DNA from: Haliotis cracherodii
Taxonomy: Eukaryota
Direction: 5' to 3'
Assembly: GCF_022045235.1 (NCBI RefSeq)
Contig: NW_027266265.1
Span: forward strand, 3,224,001 to 3,288,000
Length of the DNA stretch: 64,000 bases
Made by a program: the position numbers and the translations under genes
In this document: positions 5,560-57,214 of the stretch, in pieces
Position numbering within the stretch: the first letter of the stretch is position 1
Layout: each line of letters begins with the position of its first letter
Notes under the pieces: generated by a model
Database searches by the model: none
Told to the model about the DNA's origin: nothing
The model's input: only the letters and a program-made list of their open reading frames with translations

Positions 5560-5834
5560 TACGTTAATCCCCAAAAATGACTAATCCTTTGTTTTGACGT
5601 AAATATCCCCATGTTTTATTCTCAAGGGATGAGTTGATAACGCTGCACTTAATCGATGTTATATATCAATCAAATCTGTTAAACCCGACATGACCAATAT
5701 ACAGCCATGTCATGTTCATGTGCTGTTGCAGGCTGGCTGGCTATATATTGCTCCGCCCTGGTTGTCGAGCCACCAGTCTCAAGCAGGCAGGCAGTCCGTC
5801 AGTTCAGACTTTAAACCAACACACAGCAGTCATC
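5560..5834 (+). promoter_or_regulatory. Core promoter/5'UTR of CA copy 1
   Basis: TGACTAA (AP-1-like) about 5579, TGACGTAA (CRE-like) 5595-5602, CCAAT 5694-5698, TATATA 5742-5747, Inr-like CCAGTC about 30 nt downstream and TCAGTT at 5799. Conserved in copies 2 and 3. Confidence 0.65.
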
Positions 5835-8800
5835 ATGAGTTGGGGATACGGAACCGAGAACGGTAAGTTGCTGCGGTGTGATAGTTCTTATTGTTCTTTA
5901 ATATTTCTCTGCTCGCTTTGTTCTTTATTCAGGTCAGATGTATTTCATGTGTGTTAATGAGCACTCTTAATTTTGTTTTTGCACCTTTCAAAAATCAGTT
6001 TGCAACCGGAATCTTTTCTCTGTGAAGGTGACTTTTTTAGATTTCTTATTTTTGATTTCCAACTTTTTAAAAAGATATTGCATTAATTTGGCAGGACATT
6101 GATAACGGCTTTTGAAACACAGTCAATATATTTGCAGTATTCTTTCTTTTGGGACAGTTCTTAGTATAGATAGATGATTTATTTAATAAACTCATTATCA
6201 CATCTATTATTTTTTAGATTCATTTACAAATATTTTTTGGTATAGTTTTTATTGTTTTAATTATAATCGTTCACATTTATTTTTGTCTTAAATGACACTG
6301 TCGTTGTAGGTGTAAGTTTGTTACCCTGTTGCTAGGTGAGACGTATATTATTTTTACCGAGCAAGTACAATATACAGTAACTAAGCAACATCTCGTCCTG
6401 ATGTTGAAATCGAATAATATTCGTTTGTTTGAATCCATACACCTTTTTATGAGCGAATATGACAGTTAGAAGTATTGCACAGAAAACGTTTTACAATGTG
6501 TATTTATCCTTCGGCATACTCTTCACGGGGTGTGTCCCCTTGTTGTTCAGTGAATGTAAACCGCATTCGTTCGCGTTTTGCCCTTGAACTAAACGACCCC
6601 ACATTTGTCGGCGGCTTGATATTTGAAATACACACTGGGTTCCGTCTTGTGCTACATCTGTTAACATAAGTCTAGACGCACCGATGGTGTGTATATGTAC
6701 TATAGTTTCCCCAAGGAGCGCATGGTAATGGGAGGAAGGTTCGTCTTCTTATATAAAACGGTACATGTTTTTCAGTTACCATACCTTTTAATAGTAAGCC
6801 CATTATGACTTTGTAATATTTTTGCCAACTTGACAGTTGGAGTTTGGTTGGTTAAGGGACTTCTTCAAAGCGTTTTGCATATCTATTTCAAATACCTGTG
6901 CTACTTCGTAGAAACACCTTTTTTATAACTTCATCTAAACATATTACAAACAGGCGTCTCTCTTAAGGAAACGTCCCTAGTTACGGGAATGCATCACAAG
7001 TGACATCTATATCCTTCTCTTAACGTAGATCTGTTGTGAAGGTGAAAGTGACAAATATCCATTAAGGTTGTCAGGTGGGGCTTATCAAGTCAGTGCACAC
7101 GTGTCAGTTGTCTGGCAGTACACCATCGACCTCCCGGTACCCGCAGTGCCTTCACTCAGGCGCACGGCGGACTGTGCATGACGTATGCCGGTCCTGATGG
7201 CTCTCTGTGGACATTAATCCTTAGTACCACGTGCCGTAAAGTAACAGCATGTAACATACACTTCTTAGAAAACTAGAACCCTTGAGGCAGATTCAACAAT
7301 GTTGTTTTCTACAAGTGTTCAGTAACTACAATAATTATGATATTGAGTAGAAGCAATGTAGACGGGTAGAAATATGAATCTCAATTAAGTGGGATGCATA
7401 ATTTCGGATCTTGCACAATCACACAATATTTATTTTGGATTTAATTGTACTACTTTGACAGATATTCTTGTACGGATATATCTGTGTATAAATCTGATGG
7501 ATTCGTGGAAAATGGTGTTCAGATAAGCCAGATGAGTTAAGATAAGATAAGCCATCCTATAAAGACCATACGGTTAAAAGCATCGACAAACCGAGGTACA
7601 ATGAAATCCTTTTTATTTGAAATGATTAAAGTAAATAACAGATGATTCTTACTAACCTGGGTTAAAAACGGACATTTGTAATTTGTACACCCTTCATATG
7701 TGGTTTTTAGCATCTTACTCATGTTTTAATGAGATGATTATCATAATATTTTTTATAAAATCAAGGGTATGGCCTTGACATGCTCCTGTTCTAGTGAGAT
7801 GGTTACTACCATATTGTAAAAACAAAAACGTGCAAACCATTGACATATCTCATTACCATACTGTATACACAAGAGTGTGTATAGCTTAGTCACGTATATA
7901 AAGCAACAGCTGGTCCTTCGAGAAACACTATACGTTGAATATTAATATAGAACAAATACTACAGTCCGAAATGTACAATGTACAATGAAGGAACAGATAT
8001 CTCATTGTAAGACATATGAGGACGCTAATTCGCAAGGACGTGTCATAGTATATATCTCTCCAGTTAATTCCCTTTGCGCCGCCATGCTCGGTTTAATCCA
8101 GTACACCACACACACAAGGTGACGAATGTTTTGTATATCAAACATGGCGTGCTCGTTTAGGTGCGTCTCAAAAAATGAATTAAATAAACTTAACGGCGCC
8201 TTTCACGATAGGCCAAATCAATTTGTTATATGTGTATTGACAATATGCCTCTGAATGATGCCTTACATAAATCTTTTATTGGGTTGAATTTATGACATTT
8301 CAAAATGCATTTAAACTTGTGATAAATAATATTCTGGGTAATAACGGATGTTCAACGGATGCTCACATACTTGCTGACATGGTTTTATGGGGCAATTACA
8401 CCAAACTTAAATACAATAAACATTAAACAGGCAAGAGCCGAAATTCACTTGAACAAGTTGGCGGGGTATGTCAGCAGCATGGAACATGTCAGGCCATGAC
8501 ATTGGTGGGTTACACTGGCACCCGTTGACAATACCAGGTGTCACCTAACCACTGTGTGCGTGTCAGCGTAGCCCAAGAACATAGGCAATCAATGCCCAAT
8601 ATCTACCATCTCAAATACTGTTCCGACTTTAATTGAAATTTAAAGTAGACAAACGTTTATTGATAACTTCTTGTTTATGTCACCTTGCCGTGTCTGTCAA
8701 GTCATGTTGTCTAATATCCGTATGTCACATTCTCTGATAACATTGTGCCACATTGTCTTTCACGTGATATTCCTGTTTTTTTCAGGACCCAAGTCATGGG

Positions 8801-11800
8801 TCAACAACTTCCCCATAGCCGCGGGCAAACAACAGTCTCCTGTGGACATCAACTCGACCAATGTCGAGTTCGACCAGAAGCTCGAGGCCAACCCTCTTTC
8901 TGTCAAGTACTATATCGAACAGAACATGGACTTCGAGAACACAGGGTTCTCCGTCAAGGCCAACATCCGGGAACCATCAAGTAAGTTCCACTTTAAATGA
9001 ACATCTTGCTTATTTAACGTGAGACAGTGAATGCTGTCTAACGTCACAACCAGCAATACCCTAGTCCATCACAGAGGCTCGTACAGAGTCGAGCCTGGGC
9101 AGTACAAGCCAATGGATGTACTCTCGGGGTTCTATAAAACCCAACAACCAAGTCTTCGAGTCTGACCACTAGAGCCGTTTTAGTCCACCCGTATGACAAG
9201 CATTGGTTGCTTAGGTGCATTTCTACCCGGTGTCCTCCAACCTTCCAACCATACCCAACTGCCCCCCCCCCCCTACCCCCCTAAACCATCCACCCATTTC
9301 ATTTGTCTCCACTTTACCCAGCACATCATCCGTTTGTCCGTCAAGACAGCTTGTTACAAAGATGCGAGGAGTTGTGTTGAACATGGTAACATATGTGTAA
9401 AATAAAATCTCCATTCTTTAATGCAGATAATCATAAACCATAAACATAATATTGTATAATCATGAATTACAATTTCCCAGCCATATCGATACAACGACAT
9501 CCTTTCTTCAACTGCAGAATCTGATTTGCCTATATCTAGCATGCTGATGTTGAACAATCTGTAACTGTGTTGCAGCTATCTCAGGGGGCCCCCTTGAAAG
9601 CACATATCAACTTGAGCAGTTCCATCTCCACTGGGGGTCATGTGACGAGAGGGGGTCGGAGCACACAGTGGAGGGCAAGACATTCCCAGCCGAGGTACTC
9701 TCTCCTAGACCACATGTAAAATATATCCGTCGTATATAAATGGTTATTTCAGTCAATCATAAGGCCACGACAAACGTATATTTTCCCAATGTATACAGAC
9801 TCGAGAAATGCGAACTTAAAGGGGAAGTGTACACGCAAAAATCACTTTCTTTCTTTTTCTAAACAAAACGCAATTTTAGAATTAGTTAGTATCTGTGTTT
9901 GAAAATATACACTCATTTTTTTTCACAGTGAAAGTAGGAAGCTCACAATAGTGTGAAAGTGATATGCCGTTATGAGGCCTTCGTTTTACGAGCGAAATAG
10001 GCCTGAGTTATCCCCCTTAGATTATGACGTAATTGGTGCCAATTTAACTGGGTCCCTGTCTATTCTCAACGCAAAAGATATCAAGGACCAGTTTGCGGTA
10101 AAACAACATGGTCTACGACACACTCCGGCGCAGTGGTGACTCAGCATAACACAATTCTGGCTGGCATCTGAGATGCTAGAATCACAAACTGTACCTACAC
10201 CACGTGAAGCGGCTCTAACAAAGCATGATGACGTCATAATGTTTATCAATTGGCACCAATGACGTCATATTGCAAGGGACATAAGCCATGGTGTTTTTGT
10301 TATGGAAATAGAACACTTGGAAAATGTGAAAAATATAAATCGTTTTAGTGCAAAAAATATGTTAATTGAATATGATGTTTTTTTATATTTTTGTCTATGA
10401 CACTTCTATGTTAACACTTTTAATGTGGAAAAAGTACAAGGAAAAAAGGTTCATTTCCGTGTGAATTTGCCCTTTAATGACTTAATGACGTACCTTCTAA
10501 CGTAATGGGTCGACAACAACAAAGATCTTGAGTCACAATTACTCTCCACTTAAACACGTACAGTCACAAGTAAACAATATTCTTTTCGATATTCAATTAT
10601 GTGCTTGTTTTCTTTACAAATGAATATCTGTTTTCAGCTTCATCTAGTCCATTGGAACCGAGATAAATATTCCAGCTTCGGCGAGGCCGCAGACAAACCT
10701 GATGGTTTGGCAGTGTTTGGCATCTTCTTGGAGGTAGGACCCTCAACTAAAGTCTCGAGCTAATGGAACGTGTACATTATTCCTTTAGGCTTGCGTGACG
10801 AATGAATCGCATGTAAAATATGTAATACAAGGAAAAGGTCTTGGTGCAAAACGTCCCAAGTGAATTTTATATTTTACGAATGCTTTTCACACTTTGACGA
10901 TTAACTGATCTCAACACGAGAAGGCCGTAGCTCCGAATTAAACTAATGAAACTATATTCCCATTTGTCTTCAGGTTGGCGCTGAGCATCCGGGTTTCAAA
11001 CCTTTAACCGACGGTTTAGATGCTGTCAAGTTCTGTTCCAAACATGAACAGGTCAAAGGCCAGTTCAACCCCAAATGTTTCCTCCCAGGTGAATTCTCAT
11101 TCATTCATCCATCTTTCCCTCTTTCCATCTGTCTTTACCCTACTCGCTATCCGTCAATTCATTTTCCTTATTCCAGAAACAAAGGGCTCCGTTCATACCC
11201 AGTAATGGATTCATTCATTGTTAAATTCCCATCATAGTAGTACTACTACGGAGAACAATAATGTCTATCATCTATATGCACTGGATGACTCAATATGAAT
11301 AGAATTATTTATAAGGCAGATACGCCGAATATGCAATTTGGCAACTGGACACGGTTAATTAATGAAAGTGTAAAGTGTCTGAATTAACTTACTAGTCTTA
11401 ACCTAAGCCCTGTATGTGTATGTGGGATCATGTACAATACTTCTTCTTCTCTCCAGAAACTCTGTCCGAGTACTGGACTTATCCCGGGTCTCTGACCACG
11501 CCCCCCTGCTACGAGAGTGTCACGTGGATAGTATTTAAAGAACATATGGTGGTGTCGGAGAGTCAGGTAAGCACACATTACCAACATGTACAGAAAATAT
11601 AGTTAATCAAATGTTTGTAAGGTCGTGTGAAGAGAACATATATTGAGAAGCCAAAGGAACTCTCACTTGATGTTGTCATGTTTGAACTTAACATCGCTTG
11701 AAAATATCTTAGGTTAGCAATAGTATATCCCAAAATACACTGTGCTGGCCCTAAGTCAGCACTCATACTTCTACGTGGTTATCTTAAAAAATATCATTTG

Positions 11801-12362
11801 ATTTAAAACGTATAATATGAAAAAATGGGAAAACTTTTTCGCATTATACACTGAAGGGTATCTTGAAAAATCTTGTCTTTCAAAATCATTGAGTCTGCCT
11901 TTTTCAAACACGGTAGGGGTCCTGTGGTTGCAAATTCATTTCTGATCACAGTCTTAATTGAACCAATCTATTTGTACACATAATAACCCAGCCACTGTTT
12001 TTTTCGAACTATTGGTTAATTTGATATACATTTAACAACAGTTCGTTCAATTTCCATCTATGTATTCTTTCTTGTTCCTCAGCATGTGTTTATGTAGGTT
12101 GGGACAATGGTTACTCCCAATAACAATATCCAATACGTATGTATCGTATATAAGAACCACTATAGTCACAGTCTAAAAGTTGAGACGAATATTAAATCCA
12201 CTGTCTCTTATCATTCCATGTCTTAGTTTTAAAAAATTCTGCTTTCAGTTAAAGGCCCTTCGAAGCCTGTGTTGGGGGGACTGTGACGGCGACTGCATCG
12301 TCGACAACTACAGACCACCGTGTGAGCTAGGCAGCAGAAAGATCCGAGCAGCATTTCATTAA
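5835..12362 (+). CDS. Alpha-carbonic anhydrase, cytosolic type, paralogue 1 (7 exons, 258 aa)
   Basis: Exons 5835-5862, 8786-8980, 9576-9694, 10638-10733, 10974-11088, 11457-11566, 12249-12362. All introns GT-AG with consistent phases; 777 nt total. Motifs MSWGY, QSPVDI, QFHLHWG (His94/96), GSEH (Glu106), ELHLVHW (His119), [15 protein letters not shown] (Thr199), DNYRP. No signal peptide. Confidence 0.96.
9820..10473. mobile_element. Kolobok-like non-autonomous DNA transposon in intron 3 of CA copy 1
   Basis: TTAA TSD (9816-9819, 10474-10477), AG...CT termini with imperfect TIRs, internal inverted repeat TGACGTAATTGGTGCCAATT / AATTGGCACCAATGACGTCA. Absent from copies 2-4. Confidence 0.8.
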
Positions 12363-40900: not shown

Positions 40901-41879
40901 GCAATTTTGCAACTGGACACGGTTAATTCGTGTTAATAAAAATAGTGTCCAAATAAACTTCTATTCTTAATCTTACCCCTGTAGGTGTATGTAGAAATCA
41001 CGTTTAATGTTTCTTCTTCTCTTCAGACACAATGTCCGAGTACTGGACTTATCCCGGGTCTCTGACCACGCCCCCCTGCTACGAGAGTGTCACGTGGATA
41101 GTATTTAAAGAACACATGGTGGTGTCGGAGAGTCAGGTAAGCACCCATTATCTACATTTTCAAAGGATATATTTCATTAAAAGTTAATTCAAAATAGTGT
41201 ATCGTTTGAAGAATTAAAATGAACATAAATACAGGAGCAAAAGATACTACACCTCTCAGCTGATTTTATCATATGTTTGAACTTCAGTTGGGATTATCTT
41301 AGGTTAGCAATATTATATCCCAAACATAAACTGTGCTGGTGGGAAGCCAGCAGTCATGCTTCCACGTCGTTACATTTTTAAAATTAGGATTAGATTTACA
41401 ACTTTAAAAATGAATACATACTTTTCACATAATACACATCTGCTGAAAATCACAGTTCAAACATGTGGTTGAAAATTGATAGTCTTCATTGTACCAATTT
41501 ATTTTTACATTAAATGGACAAGAAGGCTCCTGTTTGTCCCGTAGGCAAAATTACTATTTCATTCGCCGTGTAATATCAATTTTGATCTCAAATAAGAACA
41601 AACATTATTCATTCTAAGAAAATCAGCATATAAATATATGAAGCCCTTATACTCATCGATATAAAAACATCAACGCTGGGGAATAAAGCGACTAAAAGTT
41701 GAGATTTAAATCAAATCCATTGTCTCTTTTCATTCCATCCCTGAATAAGTTTATTCTGCTTTCAGTTAAAGGCCCTTCGAAGTCTGTGTTGGGGGAACTG
41801 TGATGGCGACTGCATCGTCGACAACTACAGGCCACCGTGTGAGCTAGGCAGCAGAAAGATCCGAGCAGCATTTCATTAG
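34951..41879 (+). CDS. Alpha-carbonic anhydrase paralogue 3 (7 exons, 258 aa)
   Basis: Exons 34951-34978, 38026-38220, 39115-39233, 40012-40107, 40547-40661, 41027-41136, 41766-41879. Intact frame and motifs; about 7 aa differences from copy 1. Confidence 0.96.
35165..36300 (-). mobile_element. RTE-X-like LINE remnant in intron 1 of CA copy 3
   Basis: KTKLIV...[11 protein letters not shown]...[10 protein letters not shown] and [13 protein letters not shown]. Confidence 0.8.
38440..38680. repeat. About 64-bp C-rich tandem repeat in intron 2 of CA copy 3
   Basis: CATCCAACTGTCCTCTCCTCAAA...CATCCAACTGTGCCCCCTCAAAC, 3-4 units. Confidence 0.9.
38720..38888 (-). mobile_element. SINE family B in intron 2 of CA copy 3
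   Basis: 14-bp TSD ATAAATGCAAGGAG. Confidence 0.92.
39430..39698 (-). mobile_element. Family C retroposon in intron 3 of CA copy 3
   Basis: Matches family C; nested in a larger insertion at 39241-39706. Confidence 0.85.
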
Positions 41880-42463
41880 TGACTGAAAGAACTGTGGCTT
41901 TAATGATATCTGACTGACACACGGAATGAAGATCACGTTGACCGACCCCGACTGGCGGAAGGAATTGTACAACACTGCAGACATTGTTTGTGACTATCAC
42001 ACAACAGGGATGGACTGACATTGTGAGATTTCATCAGAAGTATAACAGAGCACTTGATATGAATCATGATCATTAGAATCCAACTGGGACGATTCAATGA
42101 GCTGACATTATTCAATTTTGTTCCCGGAAGAACGAAAGGTTGACTTGAGCAGGTGGAGTTGTTGTTTTATGTTTTTAGAACATGAATTATGGTGGGAAAG
42201 CATAAAGGACTCACAATTTATGTTCCACTTGGTGTGATATTGTAGCCCGAAGGCAAGAACTAATAAAACGGTTATTCCAGGTCTTCTATGGACAACAAAG
42301 CGCCCATAATATTGGTCACTGAACTGAGTATGAGAGGTTGTGGCGTGAATGGATCATGTCATTTGAACATTAATGTAACGTCTTTTTTTTTACAGAGACA
42401 TTCATCATCATCGGGGAACATATCACTCGATGCTTAACCATAATCTATCACAAATGCCTAATA

Positions 42464-47034: not shown

Positions 47035-47345
47035 TAACCTGGATATCGACCAAACCTGTCTTGCGATGAGAGACAGGCGCCCACATCATAACGCTACCCA
47101 CACCAAATCTACCCACTTCCTGTTTCCGGCGTAACGTTCTCCCCGACGTCTGTGGACCAGTGCTCTTCCATCCCCTCGATGGAGGAGAAATCTTGATTCG
47201 TCGCTGAACCCCGCTCAAGATCGCTCCATCCGACTGCGTCACCTACGTGAAAGGATGACCACAGCCACCTCAACAGCATTCCAAATACCCGGACTGCGCA
47301 GAATCTCCGACCAGACCTTAGGAAACCGTTTAAGGGCAGTTAGAT
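47035..47345. mobile_element. Tc1/mariner transposase fragments in opposite orientations
   Basis: Minus strand: RFGVGSVMMWAPVS..KTGLVDI (DDE region). Plus strand: PAQDRSIRLRHLRER...RISDQTLGNRLR (HTH region). Confidence 0.75.
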
Positions 47346-48146
47346 GATGTGAGTGTACTTCTAAATGGAATTACCTGTCAATTCCGCTCATGTGTTGATG
47401 GTCAGGGATGACACGTCCATGTATTGTCCCCTGTGATAGGTGGCCACGTCATAGACAAGCTGGACGTAATCAATGCACGCGACTGTCGTATGATGTCGTG
47501 CAACAGATCTGTCACTCAAATATGCGTTGTCAATTTCAGTTGATGTCATGCATTCCGTGTAATTCCAGGCGTCCTTGTTCTGTTTACAAACTGTGCCTGT
47601 TAGTTCTGCTGTCGAGATGCATCGACTGATAGATTTGCACAAAACAACCCTTAGATTATTTTTTAAGAAAAAAGAAATCTCTTCTGCAAGATAGATTAAG
47701 ATATGACAAGGCGTAATACTATATGATAAATAACAAATATACACAAACTGCCAGAGTGAATTCATATCTATCAGAGATCTGATTTAATACATGAACAAGA
47801 ACGTGATGTTCAAGAATAACATGACATGTTATGAAAACATAGGCTATGACTTTACCGACGCATATTCAATCCAACACACTGCACGCACTGACAAGCTACC
47901 ACCATTCACAATAGGTACACGTATTACTCAATAAATACATCAATGAGTACGCATTATACATTGAGAACAAGGTAAAAATACACTACCTTCCTGATCCGAT
48001 ACCAAACATAACCCTGCTTAAAGGGCTATAAAGCGTCAGTCAACATACGTTAATCTCCACAGTCACTAATCTTTTGTTTTAAGGTACATATCCCTGTGTA
48101 TCAGATCTGATGGATCCGACATGACACTCACTATGGTTGGCTATAT

Positions 48147-49629
48147 GGTTTGTTCCCACTGTGTCGGCAGATTATTTCGTATTAATTAAGATAATTCGGA
48201 TTAGCCGTCATGCTTTGCTACACTGCCGACACTAATTAGTATATTTCATGAACTTGGCATTGTTATTAACCAACTCTAGTTTTGTTATCCGAACTACTCG
48301 TACGTGCTATTGAAGGCCCTGATGTAGTGAACACCGTCCTCACGTTCTACAGCGACCACGGCAGCCTGTACACGGCTGTCAAACACGTGTTTGTCTGTAA
48401 AGGTTCTACTACACCAAATCAGAACCAGTTTGGACAGTGCGGTTTTCGTAGGGGCCTTCAGTGCAGATCAAGAGATATCTGCAGGCTGTGATTGGAGGAT
48501 ATTCTGTAAGATTTTTATGTCTTCAATTGTACATCCATCCAGTTATAAAACTAACCATGTTTTTCTATATTTAGTACTGTCTTTTTCGGCATGATGACTT
48601 ATGCTGAATGTGACCACAGCTATTTTCAAGTAGGTGACATTTGGTGCGAAACTGGGGGTGGTGTGTTCAGCTTCCTGTACTCGGAAAAGGGGCTGGCTAA
48701 GCTAGTCATTTCTTATTTTTTTATTGCTGCTCTAAGGCCAAACTGTGCACACACGTACAGGTAATAGCTGTTGAATGCTTAGTTATTTAAAAAAAATATA
48801 ACGTTACTATAGAAGTCTATGGGAAAACATTTGGTTGTGTGTAACCTGTAAACTGAATGGTTGCCTTTTTCACTTCCGACAGAAAGTTTGGCGCAATGTT
48901 CAGAAGTGTGATCTGCAAACTGCCTCAGCAAACAATCCTGATGTTAACCTTTTTGTTAACCAGAACCGCCGTGATATTGCTGAGTGCGGCGTTAAACAAC
49001 AAACAAACCAAACCAATGAACCAGAACCAGCCGGCACGATGGTATCTTCCCAAAACGTAGACCTGCCAAAACGCAGACCCATTAAAACAACACTCGTTAT
49101 GGCTGGTTGCATCAGTAATAAGTACCCTGTACCCTTGATTATGTAAAATGGTATCACCCATGTAACAAGAAAGAAAGCTGGGTAGATTTCACAAAATTTT
49201 ATTCAAATGTTATTTCATTGTCATTTATGATTATCAGTCATTTTCACTTGTTTATCATCAGTGGACCAACTGCATCCAGGTACTGAAGGGGTGTCTTTTC
49301 ACGGCGATGAAGCTGTTCCTTGAGTCGGACAAGGCGATGTTCTTTATCTCTGTAGACAACCTTCCTGGGTGGCGGTGCTGCTCCAAATCCAAATTGCATC
49401 TGCGCTAGTTTCGCTCTCCGAAATTTCTACCTTCTGGATCAGTTCGATAAATCTGAAGATGTTTGGATGCGTGTGCTGATTCTTGCCGATTCTGGAGTGG
49501 AAACCTTCTAGGTTGTTGTTTGTACGATATTCCCCATTTTAATCCTTCTATTGTTGTAGGGATTAGCACGGAAGACAAGCTAAATTACCCTAAACAATAG
49601 CTGCCGGCACAGTGTGAACACCCCGCCCT
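48147..49629. mobile_element. Mutator-like (MULE) non-autonomous element inserted in the TATA box of CA copy 4
   Basis: Imperfect TIRs (GGTTTGTTCCCACTGTGTCGGCAG... / ...CTGCCGGCACAGTGTGAACACCCC). Transposase relics GCLFHFRQKVWRNVQ (plus, about 48856) and RTNNNLEGFHSR...HPNIFRFIELIQK (minus, about 49530-49430). Confidence 0.8.
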
Positions 49630-49699
49630 TATATTGCTCGGCCCTGGTTGTACAAGCCTCCAGTCAGTTCAGACTTAGCACCAACACACAGCAGTCATC
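49621..49699 (+). promoter_or_regulatory. Remodelled core promoter of CA copy 4 (GC box plus residual TATA)
   Basis: CCCCGCCC 49621-49628 directly before TTATATTG. The ancestral upstream promoter is displaced to about 47345-48146 by an insertion. Confidence 0.5.
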
Positions 49700-52600
49700 A
49701 TGCAATGGGGATACAGCACCGAGAACGGTAAGTTGCTGCGGTATAAATTATTCGTATTCTTTAATATTCCATTTTTGCATTGTAAGCCTTCTTATTTTTG
49801 ATTTTATAACTTTCTAAAATAGTATTGTATTAATTTGACACAGTAGGTGTATTTGCAGTATTCCTCCTATTGGGCAAGCGGTCTGAAAAGAATAACGACT
49901 CAAGAATGTAAAATCATTGTAAAAAAACACAAAATAGCTACGATTGAGAGTAAATATAATGTAAAGACGTGAAAGGTAAATATACTTATGACGACGTGCA
50001 TTATAAATAGTGATTTCACATTTTATTTCACAATATATGAAGGTTTATATATATCATAAAGTGACTGGCAGCGTTCACTTAGTGTAATTACAGTCCTGAA
50101 AATTCACAATACACCCGTACACGTACGTGTATTAAAGATCAACGTCATATCTAAACGGTGTCTACAAGTTTAAAAGCATGTCACACAGATAATTTGTTTA
50201 AAAGAACAGCTTCAAGATCCTTACAACAGTTTTGTTATTTTGACAGTTTTATAAATCTAGGTGTATTTCTGTATAAACTGTAATAAGGACAGTGCATAAG
50301 GAAGTGGATTTCATCTTCTATCTTGTTTAAATTACAGATTTTTGATTTTCTCTGGTCGGCACACGTGTTGGTGTATCTGCCTCTTTCAATCTCCAGATTA
50401 TGACAACTTAATTTAGTTAGAGCTAATCTATTATCTTTACACTTTACTATGAATACACAAAGTCAGCGATCTATAATAAACCCACTCAGCCACAGAGGCT
50501 TCCACAAAAATGAAAGTCCGACAACTAGTAGTCTAGATCACGTACTTTTTTTGTGGAAGCCTCGGTGGCTGAGTGGGTTAGATCGCTGACTTTGTGTGCT
50601 GGCGATTAGGTGCCTCGCTATGGCAAGTGTGGGTACGAATTCCGGACTTTTACCCAAAAGGTACGAGAATCTGTACTTTGCTAAGAAAGTGTTATCCTAA
50701 ATATAATTTCTTTTACACTTTACTGCTGAAACATACTTCTAAAGCCTAAATTTATCGGTTATAATTCCTTCATATCTCAGTTTTTGTGTTAACGTGATTA
50801 CCTTCAATCAGAAATTTGTTTTAAATAGCTTCATTGAAATTTGTGCAAGATGCATTTTCACTTTGAATTTGGGAAATAAGTGTGTCTTCAGATGTTCAAA
50901 AGATTGCAGGACATTTTGGGTGAGGCCAAATATTATAGCATTTCTCAGGCGCTGGAAAAACAAATGGACATATATATGTACAGAAAGAGGGTACAGTCTT
51001 CTATTACCTGTCACTCCCAGGATCTGCTTTGCTATTTTGATAGTGAACTCACATAACAAAGTGATTATGACCAATTTTGACACATTTCGGATAATGGGGA
51101 TGAGAAGTTGAATGCAGTGTACATGTTCCCATGTTTCAGTGCCACTCCAAGATTGTAGGAGTCCACTACATCAACGATTTGATTGCCCAATTTAAATTGA
51201 AGTTTATTTTCTTTGACGATCCTCCCAATAGAAGTATCTTTGCTACGTTAACCTTAAGTTAAACCCTCATAATGGGAATGCATCACAGGTGACACCATAA
51301 CAAATCTACGTTAAGAGAAGGATATAAGTGACAATCCCCGATTCAGGTTGTCAAGTAGGACTTATCAAGTCAGAGCACTCGTGTCAGTTGTCTGGCAGTA
51401 CACCATCCCGGTACCCGCAGTGCCTTCATTCAGGCGCACGGCGGACTGTGCACCACGTATGCCCGCCCTGATGGCTCTCTGTGGACATTAATCCTTAGTA
51501 CCACGTTACATAAAGTGACAGACAATTACTAGAAAATAGTGTTTAGGTAAATTATCCTATAATGACCATACAGTTAAAAGCATCGACAAACATACTCTTG
51601 AGGCAGGATGAAATCCTTTCATTGGGAAATGATTAAGTAAATAACACATGGTTGTTATTAACCTGGCTGAACAAAACGGACATTTGTAATTTGTGCATCC
51701 TTCGTATGTGTTATTTAAACTTTTGTTACTGTCTTCATGGGATTAAATTATTAATTATAACATTGTTTATAAATTACCGGTAAACCCTAGATATGTACCT
51801 CTTTAAATGTGATGGTTGTTACCATAGTGTATAAACAAGAGCGTGCATAGTCAGTCACGCGTGGAAAGCAATAACTGGTCCTTTGCGAAACAATATACAA
51901 TAAATATCAATACAGAGAAAAAGTACCACCATCCAAAATATGAAATGTTATTGCCCCGAATGAGCAGGTATGTCCGTGTGAGACCAATATGGACGTTCAT
52001 CGTATGGACGTGTTAAGTTATATCTTCCTCCAGTGAATTCCCTATGTGCCGCCACGCACGGCTTAATCCAATACAGTACACACACGAAATGACGTTAACG
52101 TTGTTTTTAATGTCAGTATCAAACATGGTGTGTTTATTTGGGGGCGTCTCACAACATGAATGACATAAACGAAACAATGCCTTTTACGAAATGCCAAATG
52201 CATTTGTTATATGTTTAATGACATGTTTTTATGCCTCAGAAAGATATGGGCATTTAACCTTACATTGGGTTGAATTTATAACATTTCAAAATGCATTTAA
52301 ACTTGTCATTACTTAAATTATTATCATTAGCATGTACAGATTAAAATAAGAAATGCTGCAAAGAGGGTTTGGGTGATACTGGCACAGTCAGGCTGGTCAG
52401 GGTCATCATCTGCTCAGGGTCCTGGCCCCCTCTGCACGCAGCACAGACAGCGAATGGGACTTCTCCCAGGAAGCGCTGCCTAGTCGAACCCATCCAGAAC
52501 TGTTCGGAGAATGTGAAGACTCCCCAACACTGCAGCCTTCTGCATTACCCAGATTGTCAGAAGAACTGTATTTCTGGTAGCAAACCTGGGTACTCTCCCA

Positions 52601-55600
52601 ATGTCAGTCAAGGGATTGGGAGGTACCAAACCTAAAGCACCAAGAACAATGGGGAGTCAGACAACTTAGTACTTGGGATGCAAGCGTGAGATTATTATAA
52701 GTAACGTAACAGTTTTGTCTTAAAGCCGTGTCTGTCATGCCACGTTGTCTGATATCATAATGTCACGTTGTCTGATATCTTTATGTCACGTTGTCGGATA
52801 TCTTTATGTCACGTTGTCGGATATCTTTAAGCCACGTTTTCTTATATCCTTATACCACATTGTCTTGTCATCATGTGATATTCTTGGTATTTCAGGACCC
52901 AAGTATTGGGTCAACAACTTCCCAATAGCCGCGGGCATGCAACAGTCTCCTGTGAACATCAACTCGACCAATGTCGTGTTCGACCAGAAGCTTGAGGCCA
53001 ACCCTCTTTCTGTCAAGTACTTCATCGAACAGAACATGGACTTCGAGAACACAGGGTTCTCCGTCAAGGCCAACATCCGGGAACCGTCGAGTGAGTCACT
53101 TTAAATGAACATCTTGTTTATTTCACGCGAGACAGTGAATGTTGTTTAACGTCGGTAAGATCAGAAGCTTGATAATAGTCGAGTGTGGGCCATGTAAACC
53201 AGTGACAGAAAGCTTGAACAACGACCAACGTTATTGCGATTCAGTGCAATCAACCAAGTCATCGAGTCTGCCCACCCGAGCAGTTTTACTCCACCCTTAG
53301 GAGAAGCATGGGTTGTTGTGGCATTCCTACCGCGAGTGAGCATGAGGGGGTAACACATAAACTCTCCTCATTTCGACCCGTGAAGATAGGATAGGTCTTC
53401 AGCAACCCATACTTACCATAAAAGGACACTATGCTTGTCGTAAGAGTTGACGAACGGGGTCAGATGGTGACGCTCCTTGACTTGGTTGATGCATGTCATC
53501 GTATCTCAATTGCATAAATCGATGCTCATGATATCAATCACTGGATTGTCTGGTCCAGATTCGATAATGAACTGACCAACGTCATATAGCTGGACTATTG
53601 CAGAGTGCGGCGTTAAACAACAAATATCTCACATCTCCTAACTCCACATTACAATCACCATATCATCCACACCTATCCAACTCTGCCCCCTCAAACCATC
53701 CATCCACACTCAACTGTCCCTTCCTCAATTACGCCAAATCTGGGGGCACGATTGGGCCAGTCGCCTAAGGCGCCGCGACTCGCTGTGCAGAGTTGTGTCC
53801 CTTAGGCACCCCAGAAACCTATGATTGTGGATTCGAATCCCGGTTCGCACCGATTATGTTTCTAGGTTTGTCAGCACCATACCCGTGCTCGTGGGTTTCA
53901 CCGAAGTGGTAAACGTCTGAGACCTTCAACACTTCGGGCTTTCCTCCCACATTAAGCTGACACGCCGCGGTATAACTGTAATAGTGTTAAACTCACTCAC
54001 TACTCGAAATCTGCCCATGTCTGGCATGCTGATGTTGAACATTGCGTAACTGTGTTGCAGCTATTTCAGGGGGCCCCCTGGACAGCACGTATCAACTTGA
54101 GCAGTTCCATCTCCACTGGGGGTCATGTGACGAGAGGGGGTCGGAGCACACAATGGAGGGCAAGACATTCCCAGCCGAGGTACTCTCTCCAAGACCACAT
54201 GTAAAATATATCCGTCAGTGTATAAATGGTTATTTCACTAAATCACCACGACAAACGTCTTGTCTCCCCATGTACGTATACATATGTGAACTAAATTACA
54301 TACATTCTAAAGTATTGAGTCATATTTTTTCTCCACTTAGACTGGCCAGAAGAAAACAAGTACAATCTTAAGTAAACAATATCCAATATTTTCGATATTC
54401 GATTCGATGTTATGTTCGTTTTTTGCAACTTGATATTTGCTTTCAGCTTCATCTCGTCCATTGGAACCGTGATAAATATTCAAGCTTCGGAGAAGCTGCA
54501 GACAAGCATGATGGTTTGGCAGTGTTTGGCATCTTCTTGGAGGTAGGCCCCTCAACTAAACTCTCCGTTCAATGAAACGTGTACATTTTTTCCCTCTTGG
54601 CCGGCGGAGCGAAAGAAGCGCATGTAAAATATATGTACTACAAGGAAAGGTTCGATGCAAAACATAAAAAGGGATTTTTTTATTTTGTGAATGCTTCTCA
54701 CACTTTGACGATTAACTGATTTTCGGCTGATGTCCATAATTAAAATAAGGAAACTATATTCCTTTCTACAATCAAGTACTTTACATAAATTAGGGTAGAT
54801 GGATCATAACAAGACGTACAATATGAGTATTCTAATCTGAACTTGGGGTTCCTGTGTTTCAACCCTTCGCTCCAAACCTGTCTCATCCAACATTTAAGTG
54901 AACGCATTGAGAGAGAATTAAGTGACACACATTTGAGTGTGATTTACACGCATTTATCTTCAGGTTGGCGCTGAGCATCCGGGTTTCAAACCTTTAACCG
55001 ACGGTTTAGATGCTGTCAAGTTCCGTTCCAAACATGAGCAGGTCAAAGGCCAGTTCAACCCCAAATGTTTCCTCCCAGGTGAGTTAAGTTCTCATTCATT
55101 AATCCATGTTTCCATCTGTCTTTACACTTCTCGTTATCCGTCAATTCATTTTCCTTATTCCAGAAACGTAGGGCTCCGTTCACATCCAGTATTGTATTCA
55201 TTCATTGGGAATTTTATATCATTGCACGGAGAACAATAATTTCAACTATATACACTGGATGACTCAGTGTGAATAAAATTATTCAAATGGCGTATATGCC
55301 GAAAATGCACTTTTTCAACTGGTCATTGTTATTTCGTATAAATGTAACAAAAACAGGGTCTAAGTTGACTTACGATTCTTAACCCAAGCCCTGTATGTGT
55401 ATGTAGAGACCATGTACAATAATATTTCTTCTCTTCAGACACAATGTCCGAGTACTGGACTTATCCCGGGTCTCTGACCACGCCCCCCTGCTACGAGAGT
55501 GTCACGTGGATAGTATTTAAAGAACACATGGTGGTGTCGGAGAGTCAGGTAAGCACACATTATCTACATTAATAAAAAAATGTAGTTAATTGAAAATTGA

Positions 55601-56349
55601 TTAAAATCTGATTTAGTCAAATGTTTGAGGGGTGTAATAGATACAACAAACAAATTGAGGAACAAAAGAAACCATACCTACAAGTTGATTTTATCATATG
55701 TTTAACTTCAATATCTAAGGTTAACGATATTATATTGCCAAAAATAAACTGCTGGCGCTAGGTCAGCACTCATACGTGGTTATATATATCTTTTAAAATA
55801 TGATTTTGTTTAAAACTTTTAATAATGAAATTGTTTTTCACATAATAATACACATCTGCGGATCGGTATCCGAAACATCATATCTTTCAAAAAAGTAAAT
55901 TTGCATTTTTTTATCACATTTCCAACATGGTAGAGGATCTTGTAGTTGCAAATTCATTTCTTATCTCTCTTTTCACTGAATGAATTTCATTTTAAACATT
56001 ATTATTCAGCTACGGAACTGTTGGTTGAATAGACATACATTCAAAACTACTTTCGGTATACTTTCTTTTGCCCCTCAGTATATGTGTATGCGAGTAGATT
56101 CACTCCCAATGGGAATACCATATGTATGTATCTTACATAAGAACAACAATGATCTGTCAAAAAGTTCAGATTAAATCCATTGTCTCTTATCATTCCATGT
56201 ATAAGTTAAAAAACGTATTCCGCTTTCAGTTAAAGGCCCTTCGAAGTCTGTGTTGGGGGGACTGCGACGGCGACGGCGACTGCATCGTCGACAACTACAG
56301 GCCACCGTGTGAGCTAGGCAGCAGAAAGATCCGAGCAGCATTTCATTAG
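49700..56349 (+). CDS. Alpha-carbonic anhydrase paralogue 4 (7 exons, 260 aa)
   Basis: Exons 49700-49727 ([10 protein letters not shown]), 52896-53090, 54061-54179, 54447-54542, 54964-55078, 55439-55548, 56230-56349 (2-aa DG insertion). Intact frame and Zn ligands. Confidence 0.95.
49890..51230 (-). mobile_element. RTE-X-like LINE remnant in intron 1 of CA copy 4, with nested insertions
   Basis: Paralogous to 35165-36300. Confidence 0.65.
50449..50712 (+). mobile_element. tRNA-derived SINE fragment with a fold-back inverted 5' end
   Basis: GCCTCGGTGGCTGAGTGGGTTAG (A box)...GGTACGAATTCC (B-box-like), preceded by its own reverse complement; flanked by duplicated TTTACACTTTACT. Confidence 0.65.
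52335..52700 (-). mobile_element. 3' fragment of an R4/NeSL-like (REL endonuclease) non-LTR retrotransposon
   Basis: Minus strand [11 protein letters not shown]...[18 protein letters not shown]. Confidence 0.7.
52735..52865. repeat. 23-bp tandem repeat upstream of the exon 2 acceptor (copy 4)
   Basis: ATGTCACGTTGTC(T/G)GATATCTTT, about 6 units. Confidence 0.9.
53375..53624 (+). mobile_element. Family C retroposon in intron 2 of CA copy 4
   Basis: Matches family C. Confidence 0.85.
53743..54003 (+). mobile_element. SINE family A in intron 2 of CA copy 4
   Basis: Matches family A; ends about 57 nt before the exon 3 acceptor. Confidence 0.88.
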
Positions 56350-56884
56350 TGACTGTGAAAGAACTGTCGTCTTAAGATATCACACTGACACAGGGGCTGA
56401 AGGTCATGTTGAGCGTCCCACTGCTGAACATTGTTTGTGACTATCACAAAACAGGGAACGACTGACATTGTCAGATCACATCAGAAGTACAACAGGGCAC
56501 TCGATATGATTCATGATCAATAGAATTCAGCTGGGATGATTCAGTGAACTGACACTATTCAATCTGTCCCGAATGGACGAAAGGTTGACTTGAGCTTGTG
56601 GAGTTGAACGAATGTTGCTTCATGAATTTAGTTCACGAGTTATGGTGAAAACCATGAAAGAGTCACACTTGGTGTGATATTGTACCCTGATGGCAAGAAT
56701 TGATGAAACGTTCACTCGCGATCTGCCGACGCTGTGGACAACGAAGAGCACATCATATTGGACGCTGAACATGAGTGGTTCTGGCGTAAATGGATCTTGA
56801 TATTTCAACATTAAGACAGCGTCTTTCATCCGATCATTGTACGGAGGTCAATGGTCACGAATTTCATAAGAATTTGACTTTTGC

Positions 56885-56890
56885 AATAAA
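56885..56890 (+). terminator. Poly(A) signal, CA copy 4
   Basis: Homologous AATAAA block. Confidence 0.65.
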
Positions 56891-57214
56891 TCAGTGCAAC
56901 GTTTTTGTTTGGTCATTCATCCATCCACTAGTATCCAAAATGGTGGTTTTATGTGCGAAACATTCTATATGTCAGCTTAAGTCGGTAGGATAGTCCAGTG
57001 TGTCATATATGGATAGGTTTTATACATGATCCAGTACTGACAAATCACTATCGAATAGTGATGATACCAGGTGTTCGACAAAAGGTGAGCAGATCCTGCC
57101 TCACAGGTGGCACCGTCACAAACACATACAAACACGGAAACAACTTTTAAAGCTTTGCTGAGGCCTTTGTATTGTAACTCTTGTTAACTAACTTTATAGT
57201 AACAAGTGTGGATA

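What the first reader, a model, noticed from the sequence alone, without database searches (positions are those of the whole stretch)
47345..49699. MULE transposon splits the TATA box of CA copy 4 and supplies a new GC box
Seen: copies 1-3 read GG(C/T)TGGCTATATATTGCTCCGCCCTGG, whereas copy 4 reads GGTTGGCTATAT-[about 1.48 kb element with TIRs and MULE transposase relics]-TATATTGCTCGGCCCTGG. The element's right end places CCCCGCCC (Sp1-type) directly before the residual TATA. The displaced ancestral promoter has lost CCAAT and the CRE-like and AP-1-like motifs, and the 5'UTR is shortened, yet the ORF is intact and has the most N-terminal substitutions (MQWGYS, KYW, GMQ, VNI). Inference: TE-driven promoter replacement giving a new expression pattern.
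Basis: partly seen in the sequence, partly recalled or inferred. Interest (0 to 1): 0.75.

Follow-up and report, generated by a model that had tools for sequence, protein, structure and literature searches.

The report
Transposon swapped abalone carbonic anhydrase promoter
An old, broken Mutator-like transposon sits at the TATA box of one of four tandem abalone carbonic anhydrase genes and has pushed its upstream promoter 1.5 kb away; the same gene in a related abalone still appears to be transcribed, likely from its old start site, and whether the transposon changed where it is expressed is untested.

Summary
A 1,478-bp defective MULE (24-bp TIRs, transposase relics, two nested repeats) sits at the TATA box of copy 4 of four intact Haliotis cytosolic alpha-CA genes. 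The displaced promoter has lost its motifs and 85 bp.

Three corrections. (1) Exactly 8 extra bases lie between the right TIR and the resumed ancestral sequence, likely a MULE target duplication. That would have rebuilt the TATA box, not split it; later changes weakened it. (2) The GC box is half TIR, half changed duplication. (3) Copy 2 has more private amino-acid changes (9) than copy 4 (7 plus a 2-residue insertion); only the N-terminal clustering is special, with pN/pS 0.42-0.50.

New evidence: the left junction is bridged by contigs from two other organism labels about 3-4% diverged, so the insertion is old. In one of them, two spliced RNA runs carry the copy-4 3'UTR far above background. 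TATA-to-initiator spacing is kept (31, 31, 32, 32 bp).

So the proximal promoter was replaced and the core promoter likely survived. A new expression pattern, and any role for the GC box, remain untested. New member of a known kind; interest 0.38.

The parts
47340..48146 (+). Displaced ancestral upstream promoter of copy 4, decayed; proximal block 85 bp shorter than in copies 1-3
   Evidence: 73.5% to copy 3 upstream; proximal block 59 vs 144 bp, 71-78% identity against 93-99% among copies 1-3; 2.9-3.8% diverged from organisms C and B, like introns
48139..48146 (+). Left copy of the likely 8-bp target site duplication (GGCTATAT), identical to copies 1-3
48147..48170 (+). Left TIR of the MULE
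   Evidence: 20 of 24 match to the right arm; organisms B and C restore one more match at 48164
48342..48401 (+). MULE transposase relic, first part of the DDE-region piece
   Evidence: weak tblastn match to P0003 residues 9-29 (E 0.12), continuous with the next piece across the nested insert
48402..48846 (.). Nested high-copy repeat with short inverted ends and a duplicated target (TGTAAA, or GTAA if the ends are one base longer); family not identified
   Evidence: depth over 1,000 times single copy in DNA run X10
48847..48963 (+). MULE transposase relic (GCLFHF region)
   Evidence: 77% over 39 aa to P0003, 62% over 37 aa to P0004; phmmer E 2e-13
48974..49016 (+). Tail of a dispersed high-copy repeat (SINE-like; label recalled)
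   Evidence: matches at several other places in the window; loose ends at 48974 and 49008 in all four runs
49244..49526 (-). Inverted C-terminal MULE transposase relic with a frameshift
   Evidence: 61% over 31 aa to P0003 residues 125-155; 44% over 25 aa to P0004
49601..49624 (-). Right TIR of the MULE, ending in CCCC
49621..49628 (+). GC box CCCCGCCC: four TIR bases plus four bases of the changed target duplication
   Evidence: function untested
49625..49632 (+). Right copy of the likely 8-bp target duplication (GCCCTTAT), 5 of 8 matching
49630..49635 (+). Residual, weakened TATA box (TATATT)
   Evidence: consensus comparison recalled
49660..49666 (+). Initiator-like motif; predicted start at 49662, 32 bp from TATATT as in copy 3
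   Evidence: no 5' end data
49700..56349 (+). Copy 4 carbonic anhydrase, 7 coding exons (49700-49727, 52896-53090, 54061-54179, 54447-54542, 54964-55078, 55439-55548, 56230-56349), 260 aa
   Evidence: introns 2-6 match five GT..AG joints in runs X8 and X12, which cannot tell the paralogues apart
56350..56900 (+). Copy-4-specific 3'UTR with AATAAA at 56885
   Evidence: 74-80% to paralogues over 56444-56681; contig depth 339 and 785 in X8 and X12
5742..12362 (+). Copy 1 (TATA to stop), uninterrupted promoter
23208..27433 (+). Copy 2 (TATA to stop), uninterrupted promoter
34857..41879 (+). Copy 3 (TATA to stop), uninterrupted promoter

Best explanation
A defective Mutator-like transposon sits at the TATA box of copy 4 and has moved the old upstream promoter 1.5 kb away, while the core promoter likely stayed with the gene and likely still sets the old start site. 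Steps: (1) Shown: the insertion is derived and old. (2) Inferred: its 8-bp target duplication gave the gene a complete TATA box at the moment of insertion, so the gene stayed alive. (3) Shown: the displaced upstream block has decayed to intron-like divergence. (4) Inferred: three later changes in the gene-side duplication weakened the TATA and, together with the TIR's terminal CCCC, made the GC box. (5) Inferred: transcription now rests on the residual TATA and initiator plus activators that were not displaced, most likely intron-1 or cluster-wide enhancers, with the TIR end as a minor contributor. (6) Inferred: the foreign DNA and indels cut the 5' end of copy 4 off from the gene conversion that keeps the promoters and first exons of copies 1-3 alike, so its N-terminus drifted under loosened constraint.
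For: Outgroup: the H. rubra protein model reads through the insertion site with 0 back-translation mismatches to copies 1-3 over 33 nt. Age: single contigs bridge the left junction in organism C (649/257 bp, X10) and B (649/69 bp, X7) at 2.9% and 3.8% divergence. Geometry: TIR symmetry ends the element at 49624 and ancestral sequence resumes at 49633, 8 bases later; MULE duplications are 8-11 bp (PMC6446971, passages) and 8 or 9 bp for the animal MULE Muta1 (PMC5225508, passages). Core kept: TATATT to initiator A is 31, 31, 32 and 32 bp, inside the -32 to -29 window reported for mouse (PMC1779604, abstract). Expression: X8 and X12 show five spliced joints absent from the two DNA runs, and a copy-4-type 3'UTR contig at depth 339 and 785, against 4-11 upstream of the element; paralogue UTRs are only 74-80% alike there. 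Weak start hint: in X12 the excess depth in bin 49568-49891 fits at most about 94 bp upstream of 49727, and the bin to its left is at background. Conversion: copies 1-3 are 93-99% alike from the proximal promoter to the ATG but 73-88% in introns 3-5; TE insertions and large indels are described as ending conversion (PMC3924837, passages). N-terminal pN/pS is 0.42-0.50, with pS raised as well (0.17-0.19). Intron 1 of copy 4 keeps blocks 85-87% alike to copies 1 and 3.
Against: The duplication matches at only 5 of 8, three of them forced by the overlap, and no second copy of the element was obtained to fix its true end. All three changes lie on the gene side: P about 0.01-0.02 at a TIR-derived one-sided rate, post hoc, which is more than drift predicts. 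The right junction is not among the pieces shown for B or C (one search lists 32 of about 302,700 pieces). In X8 nothing is laid on 49568-49727, and the intron-1 contig carries 216 unmatched letters upstream of 49728, so one of the two RNA runs does not show the copy-4 exon 1 at all. Contig depth cannot fix a start site or a level (tool's own warning). The amino-acid changes extend into exon 2, 3.2 kb from the insertion, which a purely local barrier explains poorly; their clustering is significant (permutation P 5e-4). No enhancer was tested.
Confidence: 0.55

Rival explanations
1. Co-opted promoter with a new role. The TIR end and selected changes in the duplication built a working GC-box promoter that gave copy 4 its own tissue or stress pattern, and selection keeps its N-terminus distinct against gene conversion.
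For: Three changes on the gene-side duplication and none on the displaced copy; the old downstream GC box was lost while an upstream one appeared; the gene is intact and appears expressed long after the insertion; 8 of 12 codons with copy-4-private changes lie in codons 1-42, across two exons; local divergence peaks are a described sign of selection under conversion (PMC3924837, passages); Q2, Y13 and M24 are not among the seven commonest residues in 116 homologues.
Against: pN/pS 0.42-0.50; 4 of the 6 changed sites also differ in H. rubra and are variable among homologues; the flanking introns are not homogenised as they are in the opsin example; the GC box ends one base before the TATA, closer than activator sites usually lie (recalled); the motif was picked after the fact; no tissue data.
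Confidence: 0.2
2. Tolerated damage. The insertion lowered or deregulated copy 4, redundancy with three near-identical enzymes hid the cost, and the copy is decaying from the 5' end, perhaps already silent in the window's own species.
For: TATA weakened, upstream motifs lost, three further derived-looking changes in the window's displaced promoter (48083, 48113, 48115); raised pN at the N-terminus; X8 lacks cover of exon 1.
Against: No stop, frameshift or broken splice site in 7 exons; pN/pS 0.10-0.24 over codons 43-258, though conversion can also give this; high-depth copy-4 3'UTR in two studies of organism C.
Confidence: 0.13
3. The junction is repair filler, not a changed duplication. At insertion or after a failed excision, the gap was patched with a short copy of the neighbouring ancestral GC box, so the GC box is host-derived and arose in one step.
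For: The 7-mer CCGCCCT at the junction is identical to the one 10 bp downstream in copies 1-3; the exact overlap of the two flanks is only 3 bases; one event explains three clustered differences.
Against: The extra length is exactly 8 bases, the family's duplication size; three differences in 8 is compatible with TIR-pair divergence (P 0.07-0.14).
Confidence: 0.12

Closest known systems
Maize Adh1 allele with a Mu3 insertion at the TATA box (Kloeckener-Gruissem, Vogel and Freeling 1992, EMBO J 11:157; title and citing sentences seen in PMC3782648 and PMC7496502; paper not held; details recalled)
   Same: A Mutator-family element at the TATA box; cited as a case of TE sequence giving a neighbouring gene a new expression pattern. 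Recalled: the target duplication duplicates the TATA.
   Different: That was a fresh laboratory allele in a plant with measured organ-specific effects. This one is old, shared by three organism labels, decayed, in an animal gene cluster, and its effect on expression pattern is unmeasured.
Rice mPing insertions between TATA box and upstream regulatory elements (PMC3782648, passages)
   Same: The TE separates the core promoter from upstream elements; basal expression continues and the inducible response changes in some alleles.
   Different: mPing is a young MITE of another superfamily with tested alleles; here the upstream elements have since decayed.
Animal MULEs such as Aedes Muta1 (PMC5225508) and the MULE-Mollusca group (PMC6446971); passages seen
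   Same: TIRs, MULE-type transposase, 8-bp duplication size, insertion near genes.
   Different: Short 24-bp TIR, transposase in two oppositely oriented fragments, two nested repeats; clade not determined.
Concerted evolution of tandem duplicates with islands of divergence (PMC3924837, passages)
   Same: Patchy identity among paralogues and a local divergence peak in one copy.
   Different: Introns here are already 13-27% diverged (introns 3-5) and the peak has pN/pS below 1, so it is not the clean selected-site signature of the opsins.
Cytosolic alpha-carbonic anhydrases, CA2/CA7-like (H. rufescens P0001, H. rubra P0002)
   Same: Pfam PF00194 over the full length of both relatives, conserved His motifs in all four copies, no signal peptide evident.
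   Different: Not the 349- and 337-aa mantle CAs described for H. discus hannai (PMC8138131, PMC8082251; search listing and abstract openings only), judged by length.

Membership tests
MULE (Mutator-like) DNA transposon | Terminal inverted repeats | tested here: met
   20 of 24 bases; 2 matches in the window, 0 expected; range 14-500 bp in PMC6446971
MULE (Mutator-like) DNA transposon | MULE-type DDE transposase sequence | tested here: met
   relic 62-77% identical to P0003 and P0004; P0004 scores 40.6 bits against the 27.6 cut-off of PF10551. None of 10 relic ORFs hit MULE directly
MULE (Mutator-like) DNA transposon | 8-11 bp target site duplication | tested here: inconclusive
   8 extra bases by TIR symmetry, but only 5 of 8 match
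Autonomous MULE | Intact transposase ORF | tested here: not met
   fragments on opposite strands, deletions, frameshift, nested inserts
TE-derived (co-opted) promoter | TE sequence occupies the proximal promoter of a transcribed host gene | tested here: met
   element ends 6 bases before TATATT; copy-4 3'UTR in two RNA runs of organism C, which carries the left junction
TE-derived (co-opted) promoter | Start site inside the TE | tested here: inconclusive
   depth arithmetic points downstream of the element, but contigs cannot show starts
TE-derived (co-opted) promoter | TE motif needed for expression, or a changed pattern | not testable with these tools
   needs reporter, CAGE or tissue data
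TE-derived (co-opted) promoter | TE motif conserved across species | tested here: inconclusive
   no row for 49600-49640 among the 40 of 460 differences shown
Neofunctionalised paralogue under gene conversion | Local divergence peak in one copy | tested here: met
   8 of 12 codons with private changes in codons 1-42; permutation P 5e-4 allowing any cut point
Neofunctionalised paralogue under gene conversion | Excess of amino-acid over silent change in the peak | tested here: not met
   pN/pS 0.42-0.50, small counts
Cytosolic alpha-carbonic anhydrase | PF00194 domain with conserved His and SLTT motifs, no signal peptide | tested here: met
   catalytic roles of the motifs recalled; enzyme activity not tested

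The most novel reading that the evidence does not exclude
The transposon's target duplication rescued the TATA box, and selection then remodelled the junction base by base into a GC-box promoter. This gave one member of a conversion-homogenised carbonic anhydrase cluster its own expression domain and a protected, divergent N-terminus: a dated, stepwise birth of a TE-host hybrid promoter in a calcifying mollusc, with three unmodified sister promoters as built-in controls.
Probability: 0.2. Interest if true: 0.65.

Novelty: new member of a known kind. Interest (0 to 1): 0.38.

Why it matters
TE insertions at core promoters are known, mostly from fresh plant alleles. This one is old, shared between abalone species, and sits beside three intact sister promoters, so before and after can be compared in the same nucleus using existing tissue RNA-seq and a simple reporter series. 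It also shows a general point about anatomy: a long target duplication can hand the TATA box back to the gene, so an insertion 'in the TATA box' swaps the proximal promoter without destroying the core. If copy 4 has its own expression pattern, it bears on how cytosolic carbonic anhydrases diversified in calcifying molluscs. If not, it is an ordinary tolerated insertion.

Tried and rejected
No whole genome is held, so other copies of the element could not be counted or aligned. A TIR pattern scan of metagenome contigs found 0 loci. A P0003 scan matched 97 stretches, none confirmed. The phage collection gave no match. A word-indexed protein search with the relic found 1 candidate and none scored; the full HMMER search found 5. 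Pfam on 10 element ORFs gave no MULE hit. Cluster members of P0001 and P0002 could not be looked up, so it is open whether databases hold copy-4-type proteins from named species.

Run search: no RNA holder listed on record; the three RNA-guess runs with the window's own organism label held next to none of the words. This is no evidence either way. 4 of 21 listed runs were laid (X7, X8, X10, X12).

Rejected: (a) a 3-bp duplication as the whole story, since it leaves 5 bases unexplained and is off the family size; (b) 'copy 4 is the most diverged protein'; (c) polarising the CCAAT loss from the H. rubra N-terminal extension, whose upstream part matches no better than background, so loss in copy 4 against gain in copies 1-3 is not settled; (d) splice joints as copy-4 evidence, since exons are 92-100% alike from exon 2 on; (e) the first P values for clustering, which used a cut point chosen after the fact and were replaced by the permutation.

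Earlier findings of this scan: nothing by place, sequence or words. Literature: searches listed no paper on this locus or insertion; two searches returned 0; one search was uninformative. Only open-licence papers are searched, and no supplements were read; abalone genome-paper supplements could hold expression tables for these genes.

Full report
Setting. The window holds four tandem 7-exon genes on the + strand, each with an open 258-260 aa frame and canonical splice sites. Exon 2 of copy 4 finds 2 proteins among 9 candidates, both named carbonic anhydrase 2-like, from Haliotis rufescens (92%) and H. rubra (84%); both carry PF00194 over their length and P0001 aligns to solved CA2 and CA7 chains. 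The window is therefore abalone DNA; the species was not determined. Pairwise dS is 0.085-0.158 and dN/dS 0.11-0.30.

The observation. It is real. Copies 1-3 have an uninterrupted TATA region; in copy 4 it is interrupted after 48146. The H. rubra protein model happens to read through this region, and its 11 residues back-translate to copies 1-3 with 0 mismatches across the insertion point (best of 4,000 random windows: 10 mismatches), so the uninterrupted state is ancestral. The same model keeps residues from the 22-bp 5'UTR segment that copy 4 lacks. The displaced block has lost the CCAAT, CRE-like and AP-1-like motifs (names recalled) and 85 bp, and is 71-78% like the paralogues where they are 93-99% like each other.

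The element. It spans 48147-49624. The arms match at 20 of 24 bases. A 54-aa piece finds 5 relatives among 1.84 billion proteins; 2 of the 5 pass the Pfam MULE cut-off and 2 more hit it weakly. Against these, the window shows a DDE-region relic on the + strand (48342-48401 and 48847-48963) and a C-terminal relic on the - strand (49526-49244), so part of the interior is inverted. The + relic is split by a 445-bp repeat with short inverted ends and a duplicated target, and ends at a 43-bp tail of another dispersed repeat. Both have very high depth in the DNA runs, while the MULE ends are at about 2-3 times single-copy depth. About 990 bp is MULE proper. It is non-autonomous and old.

The junction. 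TIR symmetry ends the element at 49624; ancestral sequence resumes at 49633. The 8 bases between match the 8 bases left of the element at 5 positions. MULE duplications are 8-11 bp (PMC6446971, passages), and 8 or 9 bp for the mosquito element Muta1 (PMC5225508, passages). If these 8 bases are the duplication (inference), the gene had a complete TATA box on its side from the start, and what it lost was everything upstream. The left copy is still identical to copies 1-3; the gene-side copy differs at three bases, which weaken the TATA and, with the TIR's CCCC, complete the GC box. Three differences in 8 is unremarkable against TIR-pair divergence (P 0.07-0.14), but all three on one side is less so (P 0.01-0.02, post hoc). 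A one-step filler copied from the ancestral GC box 10 bp downstream is a third option. No further copy of the element could be obtained to fix its true end.

The core promoter. The distance from TATATT to the A of a shared initiator-like CCAGTC is 31, 31, 32 and 32 bp in copies 1-4, and the 22-bp deletion is placed slightly better downstream of it (10-11 of 14 against 8-9 of 14 matches). This lies within the -32 to -29 window reported for mouse TATA promoters (PMC1779604, abstract). The predicted start is 49662; it is not measured.

Age. Of 21 runs listed, 4 were laid on 47300-57000 at 90% likeness. In DNA run X10 (organism C) one contig covers 47498-48403 without gaps, and in X7 (organism B) one covers 47498-48215; both bridge the left junction, at 2.9% and 3.8% divergence. 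The insertion and the promoter deletions therefore predate the split of these organisms from the window's. The displaced block diverges at the rate of the intron-containing pieces (1.8-5.5%), with no sign of constraint. The right junction is not among the pieces shown; the tables were cut to 40 of 460 differences, 15 of 1,943 joints and 32 of about 302,700 pieces.

Expression. X8 and X12 (organism C, two studies) show five GT..AG joints at introns 2-6 that the DNA runs lack, so they hold spliced RNA. These joints do not separate paralogues. The 3'UTR does: a contig over 56444-56681 with 7 other letters and 5 gaps has depth 339 in X8, the same three indels occur at depth 785 in X12 and at single-copy depth in both DNA runs, and paralogue UTRs are only 74-80% alike there (83% best local). 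Contigs upstream of the element have depth 4-11 in both runs; intron contigs have 36-72 in X8 and 9-14 in X12. The tool warns that contig depth cannot rank parts of a gene or show a start, so this is a strong hint of transcription, not a measurement. In X12 the excess depth in the exon-1 bin fits at most 89-94 bp at depth 785-830, which does not reach the element: a weak hint for the old start. Against this, X8 has no cover on 49568-49727, and its intron-1 contig continues for 216 letters unlike the window from exactly the exon-intron boundary. This is unexplained and may be a second 5' haplotype or an extra copy. P0001 also joins a copy-1-3-type N-terminus to the copy-4-type 2-residue insertion. 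Nothing was learnt about expression in the window's own species.

The protein. Copy 4 has 7 private substitutions and a 2-residue insertion; copy 2 has 9. Six of copy 4's lie in residues 2-37, and codons with private changes cluster at the 5' end (8 of 12 in codons 1-42; permutation P 5e-4). There pN is 0.08-0.09 and pS 0.17-0.19, ratio 0.42-0.50; over the rest the ratio is 0.10-0.24. Four of the six sites also differ in H. rubra, and all six vary among 116 homologues (120 listed, less the two closest Haliotis proteins, which were read separately, and two long proteins dropped). The conserved His and SLTT motifs are intact. Identity among the copies is patchy: proximal promoters of copies 2 and 3 are 99% alike and introns 3-5 73-88%, as expected under gene conversion, which TE insertions and large indels can end and under which selected sites can show as peaks (PMC3924837, passages). 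Escape from conversion with loosened constraint fits; selection is not excluded, since the peak runs into exon 2, 3.2 kb from the element.

Mechanism and verdict. Most likely (0.55) the insertion swapped the proximal promoter while its duplication preserved the core, and the gene kept firing from the old start using activators that were not displaced. A co-opted GC-box promoter with a new expression domain (0.2), tolerated damage (0.13) and a filler origin of the junction (0.12) remain open. The closest precedent is the maize Adh1 allele with Mu3 at the TATA box (title and citing sentences seen; details recalled), and mPing insertions between TATA and upstream elements in rice (PMC3782648, passages). 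Searches listed no paper on this locus, in an open-licence library only. It is a new member of a known kind, unusually well set up for testing. Interest 0.38.

Noticed in passing
window 49728 (run X8, record 26): An intron-1 contig of the copy-4 orthologue runs 216 letters upstream that do not match the window, starting exactly at the exon-intron boundary; X10 and X12 of the same organism label do match exon 1. Possibly a second 5' haplotype or an extra copy.
   Followed up: partly
P0001 (H. rufescens) against window copies: It combines a copy-1-3-type N-terminus with the copy-4-type 2-residue insertion near the C-terminus, suggesting conversion or a chimeric gene.
   Followed up: partly
window 48402-48846: A 445-bp high-copy repeat nested in the transposase relic, with short inverted ends and a 6-bp (or 4-bp) duplicated target; organism C contigs X10 and X12 stop matching the window at 48403.
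   Followed up: partly
window 49017-49540: The C-terminal half of the transposase relic is inverted relative to the DDE-region relic; a TIR-like subterminal motif lies at about 49028-49037 and an inverted one at 48223-48232.
   Followed up: partly
window 27301-27600 vs 41747-42046; 24313-24598 vs 37941-38226; 5570-5869 vs 23036-23335: Islands of 95-97% identity between paralogues amid 75-85% background, likely recent gene-conversion tracts.
   Followed up: partly
exon 2 of all four copies (copy 4: about 53050-53075): All four enzymes have Phe where the CA7 chain aligned has His in the NNGH motif (the proton-shuttle His64 of human CA II; numbering recalled), so these may be slower enzymes.
   Followed up: no
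window 51139-51236 and 51326-51521: Intron-1 blocks of copy 4 are 85-87% alike to copies 3 and 1: candidate intronic enhancers or conversion tracts.
   Followed up: no
window 13168-13697, 29317-29457, 52737-52865: Three different minisatellites share a 23-bp period.
   Followed up: no
P0002 (H. rubra): Its 55-residue N-terminal extension reads through the TATA box and 5'UTR, so it is probably a gene-model artefact.
   Followed up: yes
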